Assembly (NCBI GenBank): GCA_963665665.1
Contig: OY762428.1
Span: forward strand, 1,664,001-1,728,000
DNA from: Candidatus Kapaibacterium sp.
GTDB taxonomy: Bacteria; Bacteroidota; Ignavibacteria; Kapaibacteriales; UBA2268
Length of the DNA: 64,000 bases
Reading direction: 5' to 3'
Below are positions 28,138 through 37,662 of this stretch, piece by piece. The position numbers were made by a program, and so were the translations under genes. The stretch's first letter is position 1, and the number at the start of each line of letters is the position of its first letter. Under the pieces are notes generated by a model. That model was not told where the DNA came from. It ran no database searches and worked only from the letters and a program-made list of their open reading frames with translations.

Positions 28138-30312
28138 TCACTCCTTCACAAACATGCCTGAAATAATATCATTGCCAGTTTCGATTCTGATGTAGTAAAT
28201 GCCTGCCGGAAAATCACGGAGAGGAATGCTTGTATTGTGTTCCATTACAGCGGAAAAAGTGGTGTTAATGTAAACTTTTGCGCCGAGCTGGTTATATACG
28301 CTGATATTTGCAGGGGCTATGGCTGATATTTTGAATTTCAGGTCAATGTAATCACTTGCGGGGCAGGGAGATATATTGATTCCTCCATGTTCGATTGCTT
28401 TAGATTCGTTTTCAACTGATACATATTGATCATTACTGCGGTAAAGGCCACGATTTTCTAATGCCAGAAAGTAGTATCCATCAGGACTAACAGTCATAAA
28501 ATTGAAAGGATAGGGATCATGTAATAGACCAGTAGAAATGTCTTCCCATTCATAATTATTTCCATATTCAATTGTTCGGCGAAATTTTTCATAACCTAAA
28601 CTCCAACCGAGAAGCTTACAGGTTGAATCAATTGCAAGTATGCTATGTTTTAGTTTTCCAACTTCACTGAACCAGGTTCTGCCATTATCAGTAGTTTGAA
28701 ATACTGAACTCGCATAACCGTTGGAATATTTATCAAAAATAATTTTTCTAATTTCTCCGCTTCCTGTACCAGGTTCACCTTCAAAAAGTTCATATTCCCC
28801 GACAACTTCCTCCCAAGTGTCGCCATCGTTGGTGGAACGGTATATCTGCCCGTGTTCGCTGCCGCGGAAAATATGTCCCTCCGAGTTCATTCCATAAGAA
28901 TAATTACCGCCGCTGATCCAGTTATCAGTCCAGGTTTTGCCTCTGTCTGTTGATTTTACAAGTGAATTTGTAAAGTCATGCCCGATATAGATATGGCCGC
29001 GATTGTTCTCAAAGAAATTATTTGGGTCAACGTTATAAGTTTCGGGTCTGGGTAAATAATCCCAGGACTGGCCGTAGTCTGTTGATCTTGCTATCCAGCT
29101 AACGCCACTATTATTGAAATAGATGGTAAGTATAATATCATCTTTGGATATGAAAATTGGAGCCAGGCTATAGATTGGATCCGTTTGTAAATCATTCCAT
29201 GTTTCGCCATCATCTGATGATTTAAATACTGAATGTAAAGCTACAGCATATATATCGCCTCTGCTGTCAAAATTAATTGCATTAACATTCGAGGCAACAA
29301 AACCTTTATTCGAACTGATCCAGTTTGCTCCTCCGTCAGTGGAATAGTAGAAACCGCGATAATTCCCCGCGTACATTTCACCATTTTCGCCTGCTATCAT
29401 TTTATCAAAATAGCAGTCCTTTCCTTCTTCTGTTATTCTCTGCCATGTTCTTCCGCTGTCAACAGATTTGTAAACCGAATTATATTCCCCCTCACTGCCA
29501 TTGGCAAAAAGTTCGTCTTTGGAGTTGCGACACAGGTATTTTGAAAACCCATTAACAGTTGTGGAATTCCATGTTTCCCCTCTGTCATTTGAAAAAAGAA
29601 TTCCCCTGTTTGTTGTAATGACAATTTTTTTATAACTAATGAATTGTAAATCCAATATACTTTTAGGAGCTTCAATATACTCCCATGATTTTCCGGAATC
29701 GGGACTTATCAAAATAAAACCTTCATAAGATTTATTAATATAACCAATAATCACGAAATTATGATTTTCTTCAATGTTATAGTCCCACGAAATAAAATCT
29801 TTTTCATATGGATTTTGCCAGTTGCCAAGCTGTTTGTAGCTGCCATCCTTTTCAAAGGAATAAACCACAATCGAATCTTTGATTTTTTTCCTTACACCAA
29901 AAATATTACCATTAATATCCATTTTTAAGGTTGGATCATTTTCTGTTATTGAATAAAAATAATCCTCCATTTCAATATCAGTCCAGTTATCACCATTATC
30001 ATTTGAATATCTGAAATAAATAACGGTTTCTTTTATTTCGTCATTTCGGTCATAATAGTATGAATACAGGGAATCGTTTTGAGTGCCCATAATCGAACCA
30101 ATAATATCCATATTATAAAGTGATTTCCAACTCCTGCCAAAATTATCAGATCGAAAGTAGCCGTTATAAGTACTGATAAATATCTTTTCGTTATGGATAG
30201 ACATATCCCAAATCATCCCTCCCTCAGGACTCCAGAGATATTTCCAGAAATCACCGGCATGAAGGTTGAAGGGAACAATAATTAATATGGCAATCAGTAA
30301 CAGCTTTTTCAT
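28138..30312 (-). CDS. T9SS-secreted BNR/VPS10-like beta-propeller protein, paralog A
   Basis: Signal peptide MKKLLLIAIL after RBS AAGGA, many SxDxGxTW Asp-boxes and CTD ISPCPASD...GIYYIRI...FVKE. Confidence 0.85.
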   Translation of the reverse strand: MKKLLLIAILIIVPFNLHAGDFWKYLWSPEGGMIWDMSIHNEKIFISTYNGYFRSDNFGRSWKSLYNMDIIGSIMGTQNDSLYSYYYDRNDEIKETVIYFRYSNDNGDNWTDIEMEDYFYSITENDPTLKMDINGNIFGVRKKIKDSIVVYSFEKDGSYKQLGNWQNPYEKDFISWDYNIEENHNFVIIGYINKSYEGFILISPDSGKSWEYIEAPKSILDLQFISYKKIVITTNRGILFSNDRGETWNSTTVNGFSKYLCRNSKDELFANGSEGEYNSVYKSVDSGRTWQRITEEGKDCYFDKMIAGENGEMYAGNYRGFYYSTDGGANWISSNKGFVASNVNAINFDSRGDIYAVALHSVFKSSDDGETWNDLQTDPIYSLAPIFISKDDIILTIYFNNSGVSWIARSTDYGQSWDYLPRPETYNVDPNNFFENNRGHIYIGHDFTNSLVKSTDRGKTWTDNWISGGNYSYGMNSEGHIFRGSEHGQIYRSTNDGDTWEEVVGEYELFEGEPGTGSGEIRKIIFDKYSNGYASSVFQTTDNGRTWFSEVGKLKHSILAIDSTCKLLGWSLGYEKFRRTIEYGNNYEWEDISTGLLHDPYPFNFMTVSPDGYYFLALENRGLYRSNDQYVSVENESKAIEHGGINISPCPASDYIDLKFKISAIAPANISVYNQLGAKVYINTTFSAVMEHNTSIPLRDFPAGIYYIRIETGNDIISGMFVKE

Positions 30313-30338
30313 GGTTCTTATCCTTTTGATATTATTAC

Positions 30339-32483
30339 TCACTCCTTCACAAACATGCCTGATATAATATCATTGCCAGTTTCGATTCTGATGTAGTATA
30401 TGCCTGACGGGAAGCCGCGGAGGGGAATGCTGGTGTTATGCCCCGTGTCGGAGGAAAAAGTGGTATTTGTGTAAACTTTTGCGCCGAGCTGGTTATATAC
30501 GCTGATATTTGCAGGGGCTATGGCTGATATTTTGAATTTCAGGTCAATGTAATCACTCGCGGGGCAGGGAGAGAGCGATATTCCACCTGCTTCTATCTCA
30601 TCTTTTTCATTTTCAACTGATACATATTGATCGTTGCTGCGGTAAAGGCCGGAATTATCAGCTGCAAGGAAAATATATCCATTGGGAGCAACAGCCATAC
30701 AACTGTAACTATTATGGGTAAAGCCGCTTGAAATATCCTGCCAGTCGCTCCCGGCTGACGTCATTGTTCTATATGCTTTGTAATGCATCCACGAGAGAAG
30801 ACTGCCGGTTGAATCAATGGCACGAACTGGGCGGTACTTTTTATCTTCATCAACAAACCAGGTTCTTCCATTATCGGTTGTGGTTATTCCATAGTTCGAA
30901 AACCCATTCGAGTACTTGTCAAAATAGATACTCACTATTTCTCCTCCCATCCCTTCAAAAAGTTCATATTCCCCTACAACTTCCTCCCAAGTGTCGCCAT
31001 CGTCGGTGGAACGGTATATCTGCCCGTGAATACTGCCACGGAAAATATGGCCCTCCGAGTTCATTCCATAAGAATAATTACCGCCGCTGATCCAGTTATC
31101 AGTCCAGGTTATGCCTTTATCAGTTGATTTTACGAGCGAATTTGTGAAGTCATGACCGATAAAAATATGGCCGCGATTGTTTTCGAAATAATTTTTGGCA
31201 ACAACGTTATAAGTTTCGGGTTTGGGTAAATAATCCCAGGACTGGCCGTAGTCTGTTGATCTTGCTATCCAACTAACGCCACTATTATTGAAATAGATGG
31301 TAAGTATAATATCATCTTTGGATATGAAAATTGGAGCCAGGCTATAGATTGGATCCGTTTGTAAATCATTCCATGTTTCGCCATCATCTGATGATTTAAA
31401 TACTGAATGTAAAGCTACAGTATATATATCGCCTCTGCTATCAAAATTAATTGCATTAACATTCGAGGCAACAAAACCTTTATTCGAACTGATCCAGTTT
31501 GCTCCTCCGTCTGTTGAATAGTAGAAACCACGGGAATTTCCGGCATACATTTCGCCATTTTCACCAGCAATCATTTTATCAAAATAGCAGTCCTTTCCTT
31601 CCTCTGTTATTCTCTGCCATGTCCTTCCGCTATCAACAGATTTGTAAACAGAATTGTAATCGCCGTCACTACCGTTGGCAAATAATTCGTCTTTGGAGTT
31701 TCTACACAGGTATTTTGAAAACCCATTAACAGTTGTGGAATTCCATGTTTTCCCTCTGTCATTTGAATTATAAATTCCTCCACCTCCTGTTGCAATAACT
31801 AAATTTGAATCACTGAAAAATTGAATTTGAAGAACACCTTTGGAAGTTTCAATATATCTCCATGATCTTCCTGAATCTGGACTCAAAAAGATAAAACCCT
31901 CATAAGATTTCTTTATATAACCATATACAACCCATTCTCCTTTATCATTAAAACAATGACCCCATTTAAAATATTCTTTTGAGGAGGCCAATGGAAAGCT
32001 ATTTATTCTGACAATTTTCTTATAATCCGGAGCCGAATAACTAACAATTGAATCCGGCCAAACAATAACACCAAACATATTTCCATTTTTATCCATTGTT
32101 AAGTTAGGATAGGGATCAGTAATCTTATACTTCTCGTCATATAAGTGTATATCCCATGTATCACCTTTGTTAGTGGATTTCAAAAAAGCCAAAATATCCC
32201 AACTCAATTCTTCATCATGATAAAATGTAGTAGTCCAAAAACAACCGTCTGGATTTATCATTATATTCCCAATTTCACGAAATTCATACAATGATTTCCA
32301 TGATCTACCGTTGTCGCTTGAACGAAACAATCCATTATTAGAATTTATAAATATATTACCATTGTACTCGAAAAGATGATTAATAGATCCTCCTTCCGGC
32401 CCCCAGAGGTATTTCCAGAAGTCCCCGGCAAAGAGATTGAATGGGATGATAATCAATATGGCAATTAGCAACAGCTTTTTCAT
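30339..32483 (-). CDS. T9SS-secreted BNR/VPS10-like beta-propeller protein, paralog B
   Basis: Same architecture, with long identical blocks shared with A and C. Confidence 0.85.
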   Translation of the reverse strand: MKKLLLIAILIIIPFNLFAGDFWKYLWGPEGGSINHLFEYNGNIFINSNNGLFRSSDNGRSWKSLYEFREIGNIMINPDGCFWTTTFYHDEELSWDILAFLKSTNKGDTWDIHLYDEKYKITDPYPNLTMDKNGNMFGVIVWPDSIVSYSAPDYKKIVRINSFPLASSKEYFKWGHCFNDKGEWVVYGYIKKSYEGFIFLSPDSGRSWRYIETSKGVLQIQFFSDSNLVIATGGGGIYNSNDRGKTWNSTTVNGFSKYLCRNSKDELFANGSDGDYNSVYKSVDSGRTWQRITEEGKDCYFDKMIAGENGEMYAGNSRGFYYSTDGGANWISSNKGFVASNVNAINFDSRGDIYTVALHSVFKSSDDGETWNDLQTDPIYSLAPIFISKDDIILTIYFNNSGVSWIARSTDYGQSWDYLPKPETYNVVAKNYFENNRGHIFIGHDFTNSLVKSTDKGITWTDNWISGGNYSYGMNSEGHIFRGSIHGQIYRSTDDGDTWEEVVGEYELFEGMGGEIVSIYFDKYSNGFSNYGITTTDNGRTWFVDEDKKYRPVRAIDSTGSLLSWMHYKAYRTMTSAGSDWQDISSGFTHNSYSCMAVAPNGYIFLAADNSGLYRSNDQYVSVENEKDEIEAGGISLSPCPASDYIDLKFKISAIAPANISVYNQLGAKVYTNTTFSSDTGHNTSIPLRGFPSGIYYIRIETGNDIISGMFVKE

Positions 32484-32504
32484 GGTTCTTATCCTTTTGA
32501 TATT

Positions 32505-32539
32505 ATTACTCATCCGATCACTTGAAGTGACCGGATGAA
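32505..32539. repeat. REP-like palindrome in the leader of paralog B
   Basis: ATTACTCATCCGATCAC-ttgaa-GTGACCGGATGAA. Confidence 0.7.
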
Positions 32540-32639
32540 TTGTGTTAATCATATACTATAATAACAAATTATTTTTAATTTGGTTTCAGAAGATACGCCA
32601 CCTATAAGCAAAAGTCAGACCTGGGAAGAGTACGCGCCC

Positions 32640-34787
32640 TCACTCCTTCACAAATATGCCTGAAAGAAGATCATTGCCCGATTCGATTCTGATGTAGTAT
32701 ATGCCTGCCGGAAAATCACGGAGAGGAATACTGGTGTTTTGCCCCGTGCCGGAGGAATATGTGGTATTGCTGTAAACCTTTGAGCCGAGCTGGTTATATA
32801 CTCTGATACGGGCTGGCGATATGGTTGATGTTCTAAATTTCAGGTCAATATAATCAGTGGCGGGGCAGGGAGATATATTGATTCCTCCATGTTCGATTGC
32901 TTTAGATTCATTTTCAACTGATACATATTGATCGTTGCTGCGGTAAAGGCCGGAATTATCAGCTGCAAGGAAAATATATCCATTGGGAGCAACAGCCATA
33001 CAACTGTAACTATTATGGGTAAAGCCGCTTGAAATATCCTGCCAGTCGCTCCCGGCTGACGTCATTGTTCTATATGCTTTGTAATGCATCCACGAGAGAA
33101 GACTGCCGGTTGAATCAATGGCACGAACTGGGCGGTACTTTTTATCTTCATCAACAAACCACGTTCTTCCATTATCGGTTGTGGTTATTCCATAGTTCGA
33201 AAACCCATTCGAGTACTTGTCAAAATAGATACTCACTATTTCTCCTCCCATCCCTTCAAAAAGTTCATATTCCCCGACAACTTCCTCCCAAGTGTCGCCA
33301 TCGTCGGTGGAACGGTATATCTGCCCGTGAATACTGCCACGGAAAATATGGCCCTCCGAGTTCATTCCATAAGAATAATTACCGCCGCTGATCCAGTTAT
33401 CAGTCCAGGTTATGCCTTTATCAGTTGATTTTACGAGCGAATTTGTGAAGTCATGACCGATAAAAATATGGCCGCGATTGTTTTCGAAATAATTTTTGGC
33501 AACAACGTTATAAGTTTCGGGTTTGGGTAAATAATCCCAGGACTGGCCGTAATCGCTTGATCTTGCTATCCAACAAACACTACTGCCATTAACATAACTG
33601 GTAAGTATAATATCATCTCTGGTTATAAAAATTGGCTCCAAACTATAGATTGGATCCGTTTGTAAATCAGTCCATGACTCGCCGTTATCTGATGATTTAA
33701 ATACTGTACCTGATGCCATTGCATAAATTGCCCCCTTACTGTCAAAACTTATCGATTGTACATCCGAGGCAACAAAACCTTTATTCGAAATGATCCAGTT
33801 TACTCCTCCGTCAGTGGAATAGTAGAAACCGCGAGAATTTCCGGCATACATTTCACCATTTTCGCCTGCTATCATCTTATCAAAATAGCAGCCCCTTCCT
33901 TCTTCGGTAATTCTCTGCCATGTTCTCCCGCTGTCAACAGATTTGTAAACCGAATTGTAATCGCCGTCACTGCCATTGGCAAATAGTTCGTCTTTGGAGT
34001 TGCGACACAGGTATTTTGAAAACCCATTAACAGTTGTGGAATTCCATGTTTCCCCTCTGTCATTTGAAAAAAGAATTCCCCTGTTTGTTGTAATGACAAT
34101 TTTTTTATAACTAATGAATTGTAAATCCAATATACTTTTAGGAGCTTCAATATACTCCCATGATTTTCCGGAATCGGGACTTATCAAAATAAAACCTTCA
34201 TAAGATTTATTAATATAACCAATAATCACGAAATTATGATTTTCTTCAATGTTATAGTCCCACGAAATAAAATCTTTTTCATATGGATTTTGCCAGTTTG
34301 ATAGCAGTTTGTAACTGCCATCCTTTTCAAAAGAATAAACAACAATCGAATCTTTGATTTTTTTCCTTACACCAAAAATATTACCATTAATATCCATTTT
34401 TAAGGTTGGATCATTTTCTTGTATTGAATAAAAATAATCCTCCATTTCAATATCAGTCCAGTTATCGCCATTATCATTAGAATATCTGAAATAAATAACG
34501 GTTTTTTTTATTTCGTCATTTCGGTCATAATAGTATGAATACAGGGAATCGTTTTGAGCGCCCATGATCGAACCAATAATATCCATATTATAAAGTGATT
34601 TCCAACTCCTTCCAGAATCATCAGATCGAAAGTAACCGTTATAAGTACCGATAAATATCTTTTCGTTCTGGATAGACATATCCCAAATCCCACCTCCTTC
34701 CGGCCCCCAGAGGTATTTCCAGAAATCACCGGCATGAAGGTTGAAAGGAACAATAATTAATATGGCAATCAGCAACAGCTTTTTCAT
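32640..34787 (-). CDS. T9SS-secreted BNR/VPS10-like beta-propeller protein, paralog C
   Basis: Same architecture; N-terminal half near-identical to A and C-terminal propeller near-identical to B. Confidence 0.85.
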   Translation of the reverse strand: MKKLLLIAILIIVPFNLHAGDFWKYLWGPEGGGIWDMSIQNEKIFIGTYNGYFRSDDSGRSWKSLYNMDIIGSIMGAQNDSLYSYYYDRNDEIKKTVIYFRYSNDNGDNWTDIEMEDYFYSIQENDPTLKMDINGNIFGVRKKIKDSIVVYSFEKDGSYKLLSNWQNPYEKDFISWDYNIEENHNFVIIGYINKSYEGFILISPDSGKSWEYIEAPKSILDLQFISYKKIVITTNRGILFSNDRGETWNSTTVNGFSKYLCRNSKDELFANGSDGDYNSVYKSVDSGRTWQRITEEGRGCYFDKMIAGENGEMYAGNSRGFYYSTDGGVNWIISNKGFVASDVQSISFDSKGAIYAMASGTVFKSSDNGESWTDLQTDPIYSLEPIFITRDDIILTSYVNGSSVCWIARSSDYGQSWDYLPKPETYNVVAKNYFENNRGHIFIGHDFTNSLVKSTDKGITWTDNWISGGNYSYGMNSEGHIFRGSIHGQIYRSTDDGDTWEEVVGEYELFEGMGGEIVSIYFDKYSNGFSNYGITTTDNGRTWFVDEDKKYRPVRAIDSTGSLLSWMHYKAYRTMTSAGSDWQDISSGFTHNSYSCMAVAPNGYIFLAADNSGLYRSNDQYVSVENESKAIEHGGINISPCPATDYIDLKFRTSTISPARIRVYNQLGSKVYSNTTYSSGTGQNTSIPLRDFPAGIYYIRIESGNDLLSGIFVKE

Positions 34788-34808
34788 GGTTCTTATCCTT
34801 TTGATATT

Positions 34809-34844
34809 ATTACTCATCCGATCACTTGAAGTGACCGGATGAGT
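34809..34844. repeat. REP-like palindrome in the leader of paralog C
   Basis: ATTACTCATCCGATCAC-ttgaa-GTGACCGGATGAGT, matching the copy at 32505. Confidence 0.7.
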
Positions 34845-34984
34845 TCATTGTAACATATACAATAATAACAAATTATTTCAATATTTGTTCCTAATTATCA
34901 GATCATTAATCAGCTTTAATGATCTTCCTGCTTATCGTCCGGCCTTCCACCGTCATCCCCCTGTTTATCGGAATGAAGGATAGC

Positions 34985-35118
34985 GGCGTAGCCGCGACAT
35001 TTTTGTAGAAAGACGAATCCGGAAAGGACAACAGCCCCGTAGGGGCGACATTTACATTTCAGATGTCGCTCCTACGGAGCTTTTTCCCTCCTTTCGAAGG
35101 AGGGGGCCGGGGTGAGGT
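34985..35118. repeat. Cluster of REP-like palindromes left of array A
   Basis: AGCCCCGTAGGGGCGACAT...ATGTCGCTCCTACGGAGCT (inverted pair) and CCCTCCTT-tcg-AAGGAGGG. Confidence 0.7.
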
Positions 35119-35125
35119 AGGAAGT

Positions 35126-35941
35126 GTCGAAAGCAATGTACCAATGGTCGACACTATTGCAGCAATGTTTTGCTTTATTGATGCCTTGGTCTACGCTATT
35201 GCACTGATGTTTGGTGATAATGATGCCTTGGTCGGAGTCATTGCCGCCCTGTTTTACTGCAAAGCCCTCTCCTTCGGGGAGGGTTTGGGAGGGGTCAGAG
35301 GTATTGAGGTCTTGTTTGCACCTATTGCAGCAATGTTCAGAAGCAGTGAACCAATGTTTTGCTTTATTGATGCCTTGGTCGAAGTCATTGCTGCCTTGGT
35401 TGGAGTCATTGCTGCCTTGGTTGGAGTCATTGCTGCCTTGGTTGGAGTCATTGATGCCTTGGTCTACGCTATTGCACTGATGTTTGGTGATAATGATGCC
35501 TTGGTCGAAGGCATTGCCGCCTTGGTCGAAGTCATTGATGCCTTGGTCGAAGTCAATGATACCTTGGTCGGAGTCATTGCAGCCTTGTTCGGAGTCATTG
35601 ATGCCTTGGTCGAAGTCATTGCTGCCTTGGTTGGAGTCATTGATGCCTTGGTCGAAGTCATTGATGCCTTGGTCGGAGTTATTGCAGCCTTGGTCGGAGT
35701 CATTGCAGCCTTGTTCGGAGTCATTGACGCCTTGGTTGAAGTTATTGATGCCTTTGTCGAAGTTATTGATGCCTTTGTCGGAGTCATTGATGCCTTGGTC
35801 GGAGTTATTGTTGCCTTGTTCGGAGTTATTGCTGCCTTGTTCGGAGTTATTGATTCCTTGGTTAGAGGCAAAGTACTGATGTATGAAGTCATTTACGGCT
35901 TGGTCGGAGATATTGATTGCTTGTGTAGCGTTGAAATCCGG
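35126..35941 (-). repeat. 21-bp tandem repeat array A (~38 unit positions), consensus on + TTGATGCCTTGGTCGGAGTCA
   Basis: Unit starts fall exactly every 21 bp from 35136 to 35913 (checked by hand). A 57-bp block at 35178 recurs at 35451. Confidence 0.95.
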
Positions 35942-36440
35942 AATATTTAACTAATTGTATTATTTATTAAAATTGAATTATTAAATATATGCTCAAAATC
36001 AGTAAATATTTAAGTGTTTGTAGTAAATATATTTATCAGATTATTAAATAATCATATTGATTTATAATATTAATAATATAACTAATCAAATAAATAAATC
36101 AAACAAGTCATTAATCATTATTTCTTATAAATTATCTTTCTTCTTTTATAAAATATTTTATGTATCCAAGGATATATTGAATTGTCCTAACAAATTAGAT
36201 ATACTGATTAATTAATAGTTTAATACTGATATTTAATAGTTTATAAAATTAATTAAATAAAACATACCATTTATTTAATAATATGTATAATTTATTTAGT
36301 TATTCATATAAAAAGTTTAGTTAGATGAACTATATCAAGGCTTGGATATATTATATAATTTATTATAAATACTATATATTTAATATAAATAGTATAATAT
36401 TTAATATTTTGGATTAAATATTTGATTATCAGTTCTATCT
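35942..36440. other. Extremely AT-rich core between the two arrays
   Basis: Hand count gives 66 G/C in 480 bp (35941-36420), about 14% GC. No ORF; a ~22-bp near-duplication TACTGAT..TTAATAGTTTA at ~36202/36224. Confidence 0.9.
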
Positions 36441-36465
36441 ATAGACTATTCTCATCTCTACCTTC

Positions 36466-36935
36466 GGGATTTCAATGCCAAACAAGCAATCAATGAGGCG
36501 GAACAAGCCGTCATTGAAGCCAAACAAACATGCAATAAGGCCAAACAAGACATCAGTAATGTGGAACAAGTGAGCAATGAGGCAAAACATCCAAGCAATG
36601 AAGCGGAACAAGACTTCAATAAGGCGAAACGAGTAAGCATTGAGGCGGAACAAGCATGCAATGAAGCAGAACAAGACATCAGTAATGTGGAACAAGTGAG
36701 CAATGAAGCCAAACAAGACATCAGTAAGGCCAAATTTCACTACATTAAGGCCAAAGAATGCTTCAATACCTCCGGCCAAGGCAGTTTAAAGCCCCGACAA
36801 CAAATCAATTAGCCCAAACATCAGGGTTTTGAATAAAAACAGCATTGAATTAAGGAAATTATCCGATTCATTGAAACCACAGAATAGGGAATTAAGGCCG
36901 GTACTTGGTTCATTGGAGTGGAAAAACGGGTAAAC
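36466..36935 (+). repeat. 21-bp tandem repeat array B (~22 unit positions), consensus CAATGAGGCGGAACAAGxxAx, oriented opposite to array A
   Basis: CAAT/CATT/CAGT unit starts every 21 bp from 36491 to 36911, degenerating distally. A 37-bp block at 36544 recurs at 36670 (6 units later). Confidence 0.9.
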
Positions 36936-36959
36936 TGAGCAAAAGAATGAGGTGTTATG

Positions 36960-37440
36960 TTGTCATTCTGACGGAGCGAAGCGACCGAAGAATCCATCTT
37001 TGTTTGCAGATAATGTATAAAGAATGGATCCTTCGCTTCGCTCAGGATGACATGCAGTTTTACCATCGTCAAGTTCAATAGCCACGTGCTTTAGCTCGTG
37101 GGTAAAGATGCAAGGTGCAGAGGCAAAGAAAAAGAACCCACCCCAGCCTGTCCCGACTTGTCGGGAACTCGCTGCGCTCGCCACCCCTCAACGAGGGGAA
37201 TTTTCCGGAAGTCCACCCCCGCCCTTTCCCGACACGTCGGGCCAGCGGGGGTTATAAAGCCTCCTTCCCAAGTTGTACCTGGGAAGGAATATTTTCTGCA
37301 AAGTTCTACTTTGGAATTGAGAAGCTCAGCTTCAAAAGAAAACTGCATTACGAAGTACAACTTCGTAATGAGGGGGAAATCCATCTTACTTACAGAAAAT
37401 GTATAAAGAATGGATACTTCGCTCCGCTCAGTATGACATT
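36960..37440. repeat. Cluster of several REP-like palindrome families right of array B
   Basis: TGTCATTCTGA..GCGAAGCGA...TTCGCTTCGCTCAGGATGACA, TCCCGAC-tt-GTCGGGA, CCCGACACGTCGGG (also at 28090), CCTTCCCA..TGGGAAGG, CATTACGAAG..CTTCGTAATG and CTTCGCTCCGCTCAGTATGACA. Confidence 0.75.
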
Positions 37441-37662
37441 CCATACGCCGCCGGGGGACAGGTGAAATCACAAAGTATGAATTTACATGGATTCTAATTT
37501 CTGTGTTATATCCTTTTTCATTTTCAACTTAATTCTCCGTGTTTCACGTAGAAAAAATCCGAGTAATCCGCATATCAAATTCAGAATTACCCTAATTGTG
37601 CTGCCTTATAATTATTGATATTATGCAGGAAATGACGTTGTTACACTTTAATAAAGATTTCT

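What the first reader, a model, noticed from the sequence alone, without database searches (positions are those of the whole stretch)
35126..36935. Mirror-symmetric locus: two outward-facing 21-bp arrays with a shared head motif around a ~14%-GC core
Seen directly: array A (~38 unit positions, reading leftward) and array B (~22, reading rightward) keep a strict 21-bp phase and both start at the edge of a ~500-bp AT-only core. Their core-proximal heads are homologous in inverted orientation: CGGATTTCAACGCTACACAAGCAATCAATATCTCCGACCAAGCCGT (minus, 35940-35895) versus GGGATTTCAATGCCAAACAAGCAATCAATGAGGCGGAACAAGCCGT (plus, 36466-36511), 36/46 identical, including the same 18-bp first step before the 21-bp phase begins. 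Units share CAAT-N7-A(A/C)CAAG but differ in between (GACTCCG in A, GAGGCGG in B). Both arrays are most degenerate at the end far from the core and contain internal block duplications. No recognisable gene lies inside. Inference: this is one organised element rather than two chance minisatellites. It could be a protein-loading platform (21 bp = two helical turns, as in iteron or centromere-like sites, flanking an easily melted core) or a bidirectional promoter making two repetitive RNAs or peptides. I do not recognise it as a described system.
Basis: partly seen in the sequence, partly recalled or inferred. Interest (0 to 1): 0.85.

Follow-up and report, generated by a model that had tools for sequence, protein, structure and literature searches.

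The report
Dispersed mirror-image 21-bp repeat element
This locus is one of about 55 copies of a previously undescribed repeat element in one uncultured bacterium, built from two mirror-image runs of a 21-base unit that keep a single exact 21-base rhythm across the whole element, even through its AT-only centre, which points to a constraint on the DNA itself and not on a protein.

Summary
The two outward-facing 21-bp arrays, their inverted heads (36 of 46 identical) and the 519-bp, 15%-GC core are real. An independent assembly bridges them, so they are not an artefact.

The locus is one member of a family specific to this genome:
- 53 loci share a conserved ~200-bp tail.
- All have the mirror layout, with five junction subtypes.
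- 16 loci carry the AT core.

New findings:
- One 21-bp register runs through each whole element. The A-row to B-row offset is 13 mod 21 in 52 of 53 loci.
- The heads plus core therefore add exactly 26 × 21 bp.
- The core is itself 21-bp periodic.
- Its 16 copies differ by at least 264 substitutions and no indel.

No frame shows a coding signature and no protein homologues were found. The outward frames at this locus lack start codons. The copies lie mostly between convergent genes, like REP/MITE elements. Nothing like it was found in 400 other genomes sampled from the class, in public contig collections, or in the literature searched.

Best reading (0.5): a non-coding, foldback-type dispersed minisatellite whose units are helically phased recognition sites. 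Function and binding partner are unknown. No RNA data were available.

The parts
34984..35085 (.). Flanking REP hairpins (GCGGCGTAGCCGC, GCCCCGTAGGGGC, GCTCCTACGGAGC), outside the element proper
   Evidence: Terminator-like and hairpin hits. The same hairpin type flanks the genome's Y1_Tnp (RAYT-like) gene. The CTACGGAGC motif occurs 74 times in the genome.
35086..35365 (.). Distal, degenerate part of the left arm: left-flank module (CCCTCCTTTCGAAGGAGGG...) and diverged rows, including a REP hairpin that occupies exactly two 21-nt rows (35261-35302)
   Evidence: Rows in register. The left-flank module recurs within loci at spacings that are mostly multiples of 21 bp.
35366..35869 (-). Array A, homogeneous 21-bp units (ATTGATGCCTTGGTCGAAGTC on the + strand; units point leftward)
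   Evidence: TRF period 21, 23.7 copies; rows; unit statistics.
35870..35943 (-). Head A: last rows of the left arm and left arm of the inverted repeat
   Evidence: Inverted repeat I1 35880-35943 / 36463-36526; 36 of 46 identical to head B; conserved in the 16 core-bearing copies.
35944..36462 (.). AT core: 519 bp, 15% GC, 15-24 stops in every frame, itself 21-bp periodic; the loop of the foldback
   Evidence: composition, stops; 16 copies, 82-94% identical to this one; gap-free alignment; autocorrelation peaks at lags 21, 42, 63, 84, 105, 126; forms the loop in the folded strand.
36463..36512 (+). Head B: right arm of the inverted repeat and first rows of the right arm
36513..36764 (+). Array B, 21-bp units (CAATGAGGCGGAACAAGnnnn; units point rightward), with 42/63-bp higher-order blocks
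   Evidence: TRF; rows.
36765..36961 (+). Tail: ~200-bp degenerate continuation of the right arm, at least 90% conserved in most columns among 53 loci and still in the 21-nt register
   Evidence: 53 BLAST hits; alignment; rows; no coding signature in any frame.
36962..37045 (.). Flanking REP hairpin of the GTCATTC...GAATCC type, outside the element proper
   Evidence: Sequence; 211 copies of the motif in the genome; follows the tail in most copies.

Best explanation
The locus is one copy of a genome-specific family of about 55 dispersed, non-coding, foldback-type minisatellite elements.

Anatomy. Each element is a long imperfect palindrome. It has two arms built from a 21-bp unit, pointing away from a mirror centre, with degenerate outer ends (a left-flank module and a ~200-bp tail). 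In 16 copies, including this one, the centre is expanded by exactly 26 further rows (546 bp). These are two inverted head rows around a 519-bp AT-only stretch that is itself 21-bp periodic.

Likely mechanism. I think the element works, or is maintained, at the DNA level. Each unit carries two conserved patches about one helical turn apart (A/CTTG-type motifs). The array therefore presents recognition sites on one face of the helix every 21 bp, with polarity switching at the centre. The AT centre is the easily melted loop or spacer, and its length must stay in register. Arms grow and shrink by whole units through slippage or unequal exchange.

Shown: the anatomy, copy number, single global register, absence of indels, restriction to this genome, intergenic placement and foldback potential.

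Inferred: that a protein (a transposase/recombinase of the element, or a nucleoid-type protein) reads the lattice, and how copies spread.
For: - Family size and layout. There are 172 BLAST matches in the own genome. 53 loci carry the tail, all with minus-type units followed by plus-type units. Junction subtypes are J1 9, J2 18, J2b 8, J3 4, J4/core 14 (with the 2 loci it left unclassified counted as J4 because their junction reads CAGGATTTC). Two more cores lack a recognised tail.
- Global register. The A-row to B-row offset is 13 mod 21 in 52 of 53 loci, across all five junction types. B rows hold one phase relative to the tail in 53 of 53. The core insert is therefore 26 × 21 bp.
- The core is part of the lattice. 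Its autocorrelation peaks at lags 21 (0.512), 63, 42, 126, 105 and 84, against a mean of 0.376, sd 0.039. It cannot be coding, with 15-24 stops per frame.
- Length constraint. The 16 cores are 79-95% identical, with 211 of 519 columns variable, at least 264 substitution events and 0 internal gaps over 659 aligned columns. The tail has only 2 insertion runs in 275 columns across 53 copies.
- Conserved patches. In arm B these are unit positions 1-6 and 11-17. In arm A they are ATTG and TG.T. They include positions that would be synonymous third positions.
- No coding signal. Unit variation shows no 3-periodicity. Synonymous fractions in the tail are near expectation in all six frames. Each potentially open frame of arm A is stop-free in only 20-26 of 45 loci. 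Codon-usage odds are inconsistent between subtypes. There are no family hits and no homologues. None of 10 candidate ORFs is in a 15-billion-protein collection.
- Foldback potential. ssDNA folds have z = -4.07 (core-less locus) and z = -4.90 (this locus, with the heads as stem and the core as loop); 0 of 20 shuffles fold as well in either case.
- Repeat-element behaviour. Flanking genes are convergent at 22, tandem at 25 and divergent at 6 of 53 loci. REP hairpins lie inside and beside the element. A DDE transposase IS has inserted at the same point of the left module in 4 of its 7 copies.
- Restriction to this genome. Not found in 40 relatives. The head motif gives 28 hits in the own genome and 0 in 400 other genomes sampled from the class. 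Searches of GTDB and JGI contig collections gave 0 or a single chance hit.
Against: - No binding protein, transposase, target-site duplication or empty site was found.
- The arms are only about 62-67% complementary by my hand comparison of consensus units, so a cruciform would be imperfect.
- Subtype J2b lacks the CAnT patch in arm B, so that patch is not universally required.
- The conserved patches also coincide with the a/d positions of a heptad. In the inward frame the rows read I..L/M-V/F, so a protein-level reading of the same pattern is possible.
- In core-less loci the outward B frame has an ATG at the junction, preceded in J2/J2b by GGAGG 8 nt upstream. The organism has an anti-SD and uses SD moderately.
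- In arm B the in-register frame pair is stop-free in 42 and 44 of 45 loci.
- The lack of indels could partly reflect young age or gene conversion, since the cores look mosaic by eye.
Confidence: 0.5

Rival explanations
1. The arrays are small heptad-repeat protein genes. One version is a two-gene unit on one strand in core-less loci: an acidic-hydrophobic IDALVEV protein, then a basic coiled-coil NKVKQVL / SKINQVF / WDEVKQA protein with overlapping stop and start. Another version is a pair of convergent or divergent homologous genes. On either version, the core-bearing copies such as this one are disrupted or differently expressed derivatives.
For: - 21 bp equals 7 codons. The inward rows read as a classic heptad, with I at position 1, L/M at 4 and V/F/Y at 5.
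- In all three core-less junction types, the inward A frame stops exactly where an ATG, ATG or TTG opens the outward B frame.
- J2/J2b have GGAGG 8 nt before that ATG, and the genome has an anti-SD.
- Hydrophobic heptad positions are kept between B subtypes while polar ones change (SKINQVF versus WDEVKQA).
- The arm B frame pair is open in 42 and 44 of 45 loci.
- Real proteins elsewhere do carry comparable heptad tandem repeats (P0025 and P0003).
Against: - At this locus both outward frames have a stop immediately upstream and no ATG/GTG/TTG near the head. This holds across the 16 heads aligned.
- Every open frame has a mirror counterpart on the other arm, as any palindrome would give.
- There is no 3-periodic variation, and would-be synonymous positions are invariant.
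- The tail shows no excess of synonymous variants.
- Arm A frames are broken in about half of loci.
- Codon-usage odds change sign between subtypes.
- No gene caller's product and no homologue exists in the collections searched.
- The non-coding AT core shares the 21-bp period and register, so the period does not need codons.
- The ESM Atlas recognition value of 1015 is below the 2300 that 91 in 100 known-family proteins reach. The tool itself says this does not decide whether a gene is real.
Confidence: 0.2
2. The AT core is a bidirectional promoter, and the arrays are transcribed outward as repetitive, A-rich non-coding RNAs, for example as sponges for an RNA-binding protein. Core-less copies would be read through from outside.
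For: - The outward strands are A-rich (AT skew +0.44 in array B, -0.35 on the plus strand of array A).
- The heads next to the core are the best-conserved GC-containing parts.
- Core-like AT sequence lies upstream of a repeated 304-aa gene and of several other genes.
Against: - Promoter-like sites are at chance level (9 found, 8.6 expected).
- There is no Rfam match.
- Only 16 of about 55 copies have the core, yet all keep the arrays.
- Elements sit mostly between convergent genes.
- An RNA role does not explain why a 519-bp promoter region should keep exact length and 21-bp periodicity.
Confidence: 0.12
3. It is an iteron-type replication origin or a plasmid- or chromosome-type centromere: repeats flanking a DNA-unwinding element, acting at this one locus.
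For: - Phased repeats flank an AT-rich region.
- The window lies about 30 kb from the cumulative GC-skew minimum at ~1.73 Mb.
Against: - About 55 copies are spread round the chromosome, 16 of them with the same core.
- No rep, dnaA or par gene is adjacent. The neighbours are BNR/T9SS proteins, Gcw_chp, an ammonium transporter and others.
- The arrays are far longer than known iteron sets (that comparison is from recall).
Confidence: 0.03
4. It is an assembly artefact of a repeat-rich region.
For: Short-read contigs fragment inside the arrays.
Against: - 16 diverged copies (79-95% identical) of head + core + head exist in a single-contig genome.
- A contig from another study bridges array, head, core, head and array (X4 record 21).
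Confidence: 0.01

Closest known systems
Eukaryotic Foldback-type elements (Drosophila FB; Galileo of the P superfamily)
   Same: Both have long inverted arms that are internally made of short tandem repeats, arm length that varies between copies and between the two arms, and many dispersed copies. That copies occur with or without a central region is recalled for FB and seen here. Tandem repeats in such arms are proposed to be secondary transposase-binding sites (passages of PMC3573991 read).
   Different: Those elements are eukaryotic. Their repetitive arms are the element termini and carry target-site duplications, and autonomous copies encode a transposase. Here no transposase, terminus or duplication was found, the arms are only about 62-67% complementary, and a strict 21-bp register runs through the centre.
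Bacterial REP / BIME / REPIN elements with their RAYT (Y1) transposases
   Same: Both are intergenic, dispersed and palindromic, form mosaics of hairpin modules and favour 3' ends of genes. REP hairpins of the type flanking the genome's Y1_Tnp gene abut this element. For REPINs only the search listing and abstract of PMC3116915 were seen.
   Different: This element is 0.8-2.2 kb, not tens to a few hundred bp (those sizes are recalled). Its arms are 21-bp minisatellites, and it has a conserved tail and an AT centre. No evidence links the RAYT to this element.
Inverted pairs of GGGAATC heptamer arrays in Xanthomonas (Rehm et al. 2015, PMC4692102), and the 'hairpin repeats with tandem 7-9-nt arms' noted earlier in this scan (e1-4916270)
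   Same: In both, two tandem arrays in opposite orientation lie close together at many intergenic loci of one genome, 70 and 75 paired cases in two Xanthomonas strains (passages read). Array length varies while the paired type is kept.
   Different: The unit there is 7 nt and G-rich (quadruplex-forming) against 21 nt here. Those arrays are convergent. No conserved flanks, centre module or element-wide register is described for them.
Centromere-like and iteron repeat sets (R1 parC, F sopC, plasmid iterons, archaeal ORB pairs around an unwinding element). All of these are recalled; none was read here.
   Same: Both show short repeats in helical phase that load a protein cooperatively, sometimes in two blocks around a promoter or AT-rich region.
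   Different: Those sets occur at one locus per replicon beside their rep or par genes and have few repeats. Here there are about 55 chromosomal loci, up to about 40 rows per arm and no partner gene nearby.

Membership tests
Foldback-type transposable element | Long inverted arms composed of tandem short repeats, variable in length | tested here: met
   Mirror arms of 21-bp units at 53 of 53 loci, with row counts varying between loci. Foldback folding has z = -4.1 and -4.9.
Foldback-type transposable element | Defined termini with target-site duplication, or empty sites | tested here: inconclusive
   No junction of the two flanking REP types without the element exists in the genome. No close relative is available for comparison. 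A 35085-to-36962 joint in contigs has only 22 nt of flank and lies in REP sequence.
Foldback-type transposable element | A transposase encoded by autonomous copies | tested here: not met
   The centre has stops in every frame. The transposases found nearby (DDE_Tnp_1, IS3) are separate insertion sequences that interrupt copies.
REP / REPIN (RAYT-mobilised) | Short hairpin-forming palindromes, many intergenic copies | tested here: inconclusive
   Intergenic placement and hairpin modules are present. However, the element is 0.8-2.2 kb and built of minisatellites.
REP / REPIN (RAYT-mobilised) | A cognate Y1 transposase flanked by the same repeat | tested here: not met
   The single intact Y1_Tnp gene is flanked by GCTCCGTAGGAGC / GCCCCTACGGGGC hairpins, not by array units, heads or tail.
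Iteron origin / centromere-like site | One or few sites per replicon next to rep or par genes | tested here: not met
   About 55 copies. The neighbours of this copy carry no such domain.
Iteron origin / centromere-like site | Repeats bound cooperatively by a dedicated protein | not testable with these tools
   Needs pull-down, DAP-seq or ChIP.
Heptad-repeat (coiled-coil) protein gene | An open frame with start codon, kept intact across copies | tested here: not met
   Applies to this locus and the other core-bearing copies. The outward frames have no start and a stop just upstream. Arm A frames are stop-free in only 20-26 of 45 loci. Core-less loci do have a junction ATG for the B frame.
Heptad-repeat (coiled-coil) protein gene | Substitution pattern of purifying selection on a protein | tested here: not met
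   No 3-periodicity in unit entropy. Synonymous fraction in the tail is at most 0.34 against 0.26 expected.
CRISPR array | Identical repeats separated by unique spacers | tested here: not met
   Units are head-to-tail without spacers.
Any Rfam RNA family | Match to a covariance model | tested here: not met
   Only three chance-level miRNA-model hits (E 0.08-0.6), all in flanking REP hairpins.

The most novel reading that the evidence does not exclude
The roughly 55 elements are cis-acting nucleoprotein lattices. A lineage-specific protein polymerises along one face of the helix at 21-bp steps, with polarity reversing at the mirror centre. The AT-only centre is a length-constrained, easily melted hinge. 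This would be a new kind of bacterial chromosome-architecture or centromere-like element, not junk DNA. An equally unusual alternative is that the two arms encode sense/antisense-related heptad peptides.
Probability: 0.25. Interest if true: 0.85.

Novelty: new variant of a known kind. Interest (0 to 1): 0.62.

Why it matters
Bacterial dispersed repeats (REP, BIME, MITE, BOX) are short and loosely structured. Here a 1-2-kb element keeps one exact 21-bp rhythm (two helical turns) through both arms, a 15%-GC centre and its tail. Its 16 diverged centre copies have not a single indel. That is a clear signature of a constraint on DNA geometry, and it makes a concrete question testable: what reads a 21-bp lattice of alternating polarity at about 55 places in a chromosome?

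If the answer is a protein filament or a transposition complex, this would be the first bacterial counterpart of foldback-type elements, or a new architectural element. It is also a caution for annotation, because the arrays give long open frames on both strands that look like heptad proteins.

Tried and rejected
- Expression: no RNA holder was listed, so expression could not be examined. Laying contigs of 4 runs gave only fragments inside the arrays, apart from the one bridging contig.
- Collection scans: the tail motif gave 0 hits in genome contigs and 0 in metagenome contigs. A degenerate two-unit pattern gave 1 isolated hit in a Verrucomicrobiota MAG, which I took as chance and did not follow up.
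- First frame-integrity script: it used mid-array anchors and partly wrong frame labels. It is superseded.
- Replichore orientation bias: not significant (Fisher p = 0.27).
- Sigma-70-type promoter scan: at chance level. Bacteroidota-type -7 motifs were looked for by eye only and none was seen.
- Codon-usage log-odds: no consistent strand.
- Covariation between the two heads among the 16 copies: inspected by eye. There are too few variable positions to say anything.
- Empty-site search between the two flanking REP types: none found.
- phmmer of the outward A frame: 534 hits at E ≤ 1e-3. The four I read (P0003, P0008, P0017, P0025, of the 150 listed) are unrelated proteins with their own heptad repeats. 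The other hits were not inspected.
- ESM Atlas: no usable hit.
- The 304-aa repeated ORF whose upstream region resembles part of the core: no Pfam or NCBIfam match.
- Not attempted: structure and complex prediction. Any heptad repeat would fold as a helix, so a pass would not separate the readings.
- Literature: searches found no description of such an element. Supplements were not consulted.
Full report
**1. Checking the observation**

The region reads as described. Tandem Repeats Finder reports array A at 35366-35862 (period 21, 23.7 copies, 82% matches). It reports array B at 36480-36734 (period 21, 12.1 copies), with 42- and 63-bp higher-order periods. It also finds short period-21 stretches inside the AT region.

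The window between the arrays has 14-15% GC, against 42-50% in the arrays and 38.6% in the genome. The core as I define it (35944-36462) is 519 bp at 15% GC.

The two heads are 36 of 46 identical in inverted orientation. They form a 64-nt, 75% inverted repeat separated by 519 nt.

Written in rows of 21 nt, the left arm is in strict register for 39 rows (35135-35953). This includes a REP-type hairpin that fills exactly two rows. The right arm is in register for 23 rows (36471-36953), tail included.

**2. It is a family, not a single locus**

A BLAST of the 1.75-kb region against the organism's own genome (one contig, 5,458,198 bp) gave 172 matches.

- The 519-bp core occurs in 16 full-length copies, 82-94% identical to this one, each flanked by both heads.
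- The ~166-bp stretch after array B occurs at 53 loci. It is at least 90% conserved in most columns.
- All 53 loci have the same layout of leftward-pointing units followed by rightward-pointing units.
- In 39 loci the two arms abut directly, and in 14 of the 53 the core lies between them. Two further cores lack a recognised tail.

The junctions fall into five subtypes: J1 (9 loci), J2 (18), J2b (8), J3 (4) and J4/core (14). One search left two loci unclassified. I count them as J4 because their junction reads CAGGATTTC, as classifies them. Each subtype has its own homogenised B unit, whereas A units are alike throughout.

An independent assembly confirms the central structure. An 828-bp contig from another study spans array A, head, core, head and array B with 19 differences.

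**3. One lattice through the whole element**

The phase offset between A rows and B rows is 13 (mod 21) in 52 of 53 loci. This holds in all five junction types, including all 14 core-bearing loci with a tail. B rows have the same phase relative to the tail in 53 of 53. The one exception has a phase shift inside its A arm.

It follows that the heads plus core add exactly 546 = 26 × 21 bp relative to core-less junctions.

The core is itself periodic. In the consensus of the 16 copies, the six highest autocorrelation lags between 1 and 129 are 21, 63, 42, 126, 105 and 84. Lag 21 scores 0.512 against a mean of 0.376, sd 0.039. Stacked rows show phased T-rich and A-rich columns.

The 16 cores with 70 bp of flank on each side align without one internal gap. 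They are nonetheless only 79-95% identical, with 211 of 519 columns variable and at least 264 substitution events.

From general knowledge of bacterial non-coding DNA, which I did not measure here, more than ten indels would be expected for that many substitutions in homopolymer-rich AT sequence.

The tail shows only two insertion runs in 275 columns across 53 copies. The left-flank module recurs within loci at spacings of 168, 189, 210, 231, 273 and 294 bp, all multiples of 21, with one exception at 163 bp.

**4. Coding or not?**

A 21-bp unit is seven codons, so this question needed care.

- At this locus the outward frames are stop-free for 292 codons (minus strand, 35072-35950) and 128 codons (plus strand, 36426-36812). 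Neither has an ATG, GTG or TTG near its head, and both have a stop just upstream.
- The opposite strands are equally open, at 313 and 116 codons.
- Every open frame on one arm has its mirror image on the other, as expected of a palindrome.
- Pooled unit variation has no 3-periodicity, with entropy sums of 5.25/4.57/4.77 for A and 5.12/3.86/4.49 for B. The invariant bases include positions that would be synonymous in either strand's frame.
- Among the 53 tails, the synonymous share of variant types is close to expectation in all six frames. The best case is 0.34 against 0.26.
- Each potentially open frame of arm A is stop-free in only 20-26 of 45 loci. In arm B the in-register pair is open in 42 and 44 of 45, which does not discriminate between strands.
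- Codon-usage odds against this genome's own genes favour the inward B frame in J1-J3, the outward frame in J4, and neither frame in arm A.
- Pfam and NCBIfam give only sub-threshold coiled-coil noise.
- Word-indexed searches of 5.8 billion proteins gave two sporadic gene calls containing REP sequence for the inward A frame. They gave nothing for the outward B frame or for the through-ORF of a core-less locus.
- Ten candidate ORFs are absent from the 15-billion-protein collection.
- phmmer of the outward A frame against 1.84 billion representatives gave 534 hits. The four I read are unrelated proteins with their own 7-residue repeats.

Points in favour of coding are real and should be kept in view.

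- The inward rows read I-x-x-L/M-V/F-x-x.
- In all core-less junction types, the inward A frame stops where an ATG, ATG or TTG opens the outward B frame.
- In J2/J2b a GGAGG lies 8 nt before that ATG. The organism has a canonical anti-SD and moderate SD use, with GGAG before 16% of 1,442 confident starts against 3% background.
- Hydrophobic heptad positions are kept between B subtypes.

I weigh these points below one fact: the core cannot be coding (15-24 stops in every frame), yet it shares the period and the register. The 21-bp rhythm therefore does not need codons.

**5. Behaviour in the genome**

Flanking genes converge on the element at 22 loci, are tandem at 25 and diverge at 6 of 53. 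That is the distribution typical of REP/MITE-like repeats and the opposite of a promoter element. This window's copy is one of the 6 divergent cases.

Its neighbours are three BNR/Sortilin proteins with T9SS sorting domains on the left. On the right are a Gcw_chp protein, an ammonium transporter, DUF5655, a glyoxalase and a GT28 glycosyltransferase. None is a rep, par or transposase gene.

The element is embedded in REP-rich DNA. The hairpins at 34984-35085 are of the type that flanks the genome's one intact Y1_Tnp gene.

A DDE_Tnp_1 insertion sequence has 7 full-length (~1.36 kb) copies. Four interrupt the element's left-flank module at the same point, and a fifth lies beside an array.

Orientation does not follow the replication arms (p = 0.27). 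The window happens to lie about 30 kb from the GC-skew minimum.

As single strands, a core-less copy and this copy fold arm-on-arm well beyond shuffled controls, with z = -4.07 and -4.90. In this copy the heads form the stem and the core forms the loop.

**6. Distribution**

- Arrays, tail and core were not found in the 40 relatives searched from the same family and order. Those searches hit only a short REP hairpin and low-complexity AT sequence.
- The head motif, allowing 3 mismatches, has 28 hits in this genome. It has none in 400 other genomes drawn from the class, 358 of them at least 90% complete.
- Nothing was found in the GTDB species-representative contigs or the JGI metagenome contigs beyond one chance-like hit.
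- No other species of the genus is among the genomes held.

**7. What it most likely is**

I commit, at about 0.5, to a non-coding DNA-level element. It is a foldback-type dispersed minisatellite whose 21-bp units carry two conserved patches about one helical turn apart. In arm B these are unit positions 1-6 and 11-17. In arm A they are ATTG and TG.T.

The arrays therefore present recognition sites on one face of the helix. Polarity switches at a mirror centre that lies at the same row position in all junction types. In 16 copies that centre has been expanded by 26 AT-converted rows.

What is shown is the geometry and its conservation. That a protein reads the lattice, and whether that protein serves the element's own spread or the cell, is inference.

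The main rival, at 0.2, is that some arms, especially the outward B frame of core-less copies, are translated heptad peptides.

**8. Comparison with known systems**

The closest analogies are these.

- Eukaryotic Foldback/Galileo elements, which have internally repetitive inverted arms that are thought to bind transposase (passages of PMC3573991).
- Bacterial REP/BIME/REPIN repeats (abstract of PMC3116915 only).
- The paired, oppositely oriented GGGAATC heptamer arrays of Xanthomonas (passages of PMC4692102). The lead to that paper came from the earlier scan note e1-4916270.

The element fails the membership tests for each where these could be tested. It has no transposase or termini, and no cognate RAYT. 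Its unit, flanks and centre are all different. Four literature searches found no description of such an element.

I therefore class it as a new variant of a known kind, the dispersed palindromic repeat elements. The possibility remains open that it is something more.

Noticed in passing
G000:C1 2,483,304-2,484,416 (L002:293-1405, minus strand) and six other places (136.5 kb, 371 kb, 998 kb, 1.347 Mb, 2.159 Mb, 2.210 Mb): A ~1.36-kb insertion sequence with a 370-aa DDE_Tnp_1 transposase has 7 copies, 97-100% identical. Four interrupt the left-flank module of the repeat element at the same point and a fifth lies beside an array. This indicates target preference for that module.
   Followed up: partly
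G000:C1 3,453,450-3,455,540 (L024) and five other places: A ~2.1-kb repeat in 6 copies, two of them split by IS3, carries a 304-aa ORF with no Pfam or NCBIfam match. Its AT-rich upstream part resembles core positions ~328-447 at 72-74% identity.
   Followed up: partly
G000:C1 2,032,443-2,034,379 (L025:1940-3880): A 17th, more diverged core copy is split by an IS3-family element (HTH_Tnp_1 + rve ORFs). Next to it is a different tandem array with a period of about 84 bp (4 × 21) containing TTCCGGATT, reminiscent of the head.
   Followed up: partly
G000:C1 1,821,817-1,822,161 (L029): A single intact Y1_Tnp (RAYT/IS200-like) ORF is flanked on both sides by GCTCCGTAGGAGC / GCCCCTACGGGGC / GCAGCTACGCTGC hairpins. 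The same REP type lies at window 34984-35085.
   Followed up: partly
window 36962-37480 and 34900-35085: The 2.8-kb intergenic region holding the element is a REP island. It contains GTCATTC...GAATCC hairpins (211 in the genome), CCCTCCTT..AGGAGGG hairpins (95) and a CCCGAC..GTCGGG inverted pair at 37148-37245.
   Followed up: no
whole genome; window = G000:C1 1,664,001-1,728,000: Cumulative GC skew has its minimum at about 1.73 Mb (flat to 2.0 Mb) and its maximum at about 5.1 Mb. The window therefore lies close to the likely replication origin.
   Followed up: no
window 28138-34817, minus strand: Three tandem paralogous genes of 725-737 aa each carry Sortilin-Vps10/BNR repeats and a T9SS C-terminal sorting domain.
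   Followed up: no
G000:C1 1,775,218-1,777,530: Two complete J2-type elements lie head-to-tail 1.4 kb apart, apparently a recent segmental duplication of an element.
   Followed up: no
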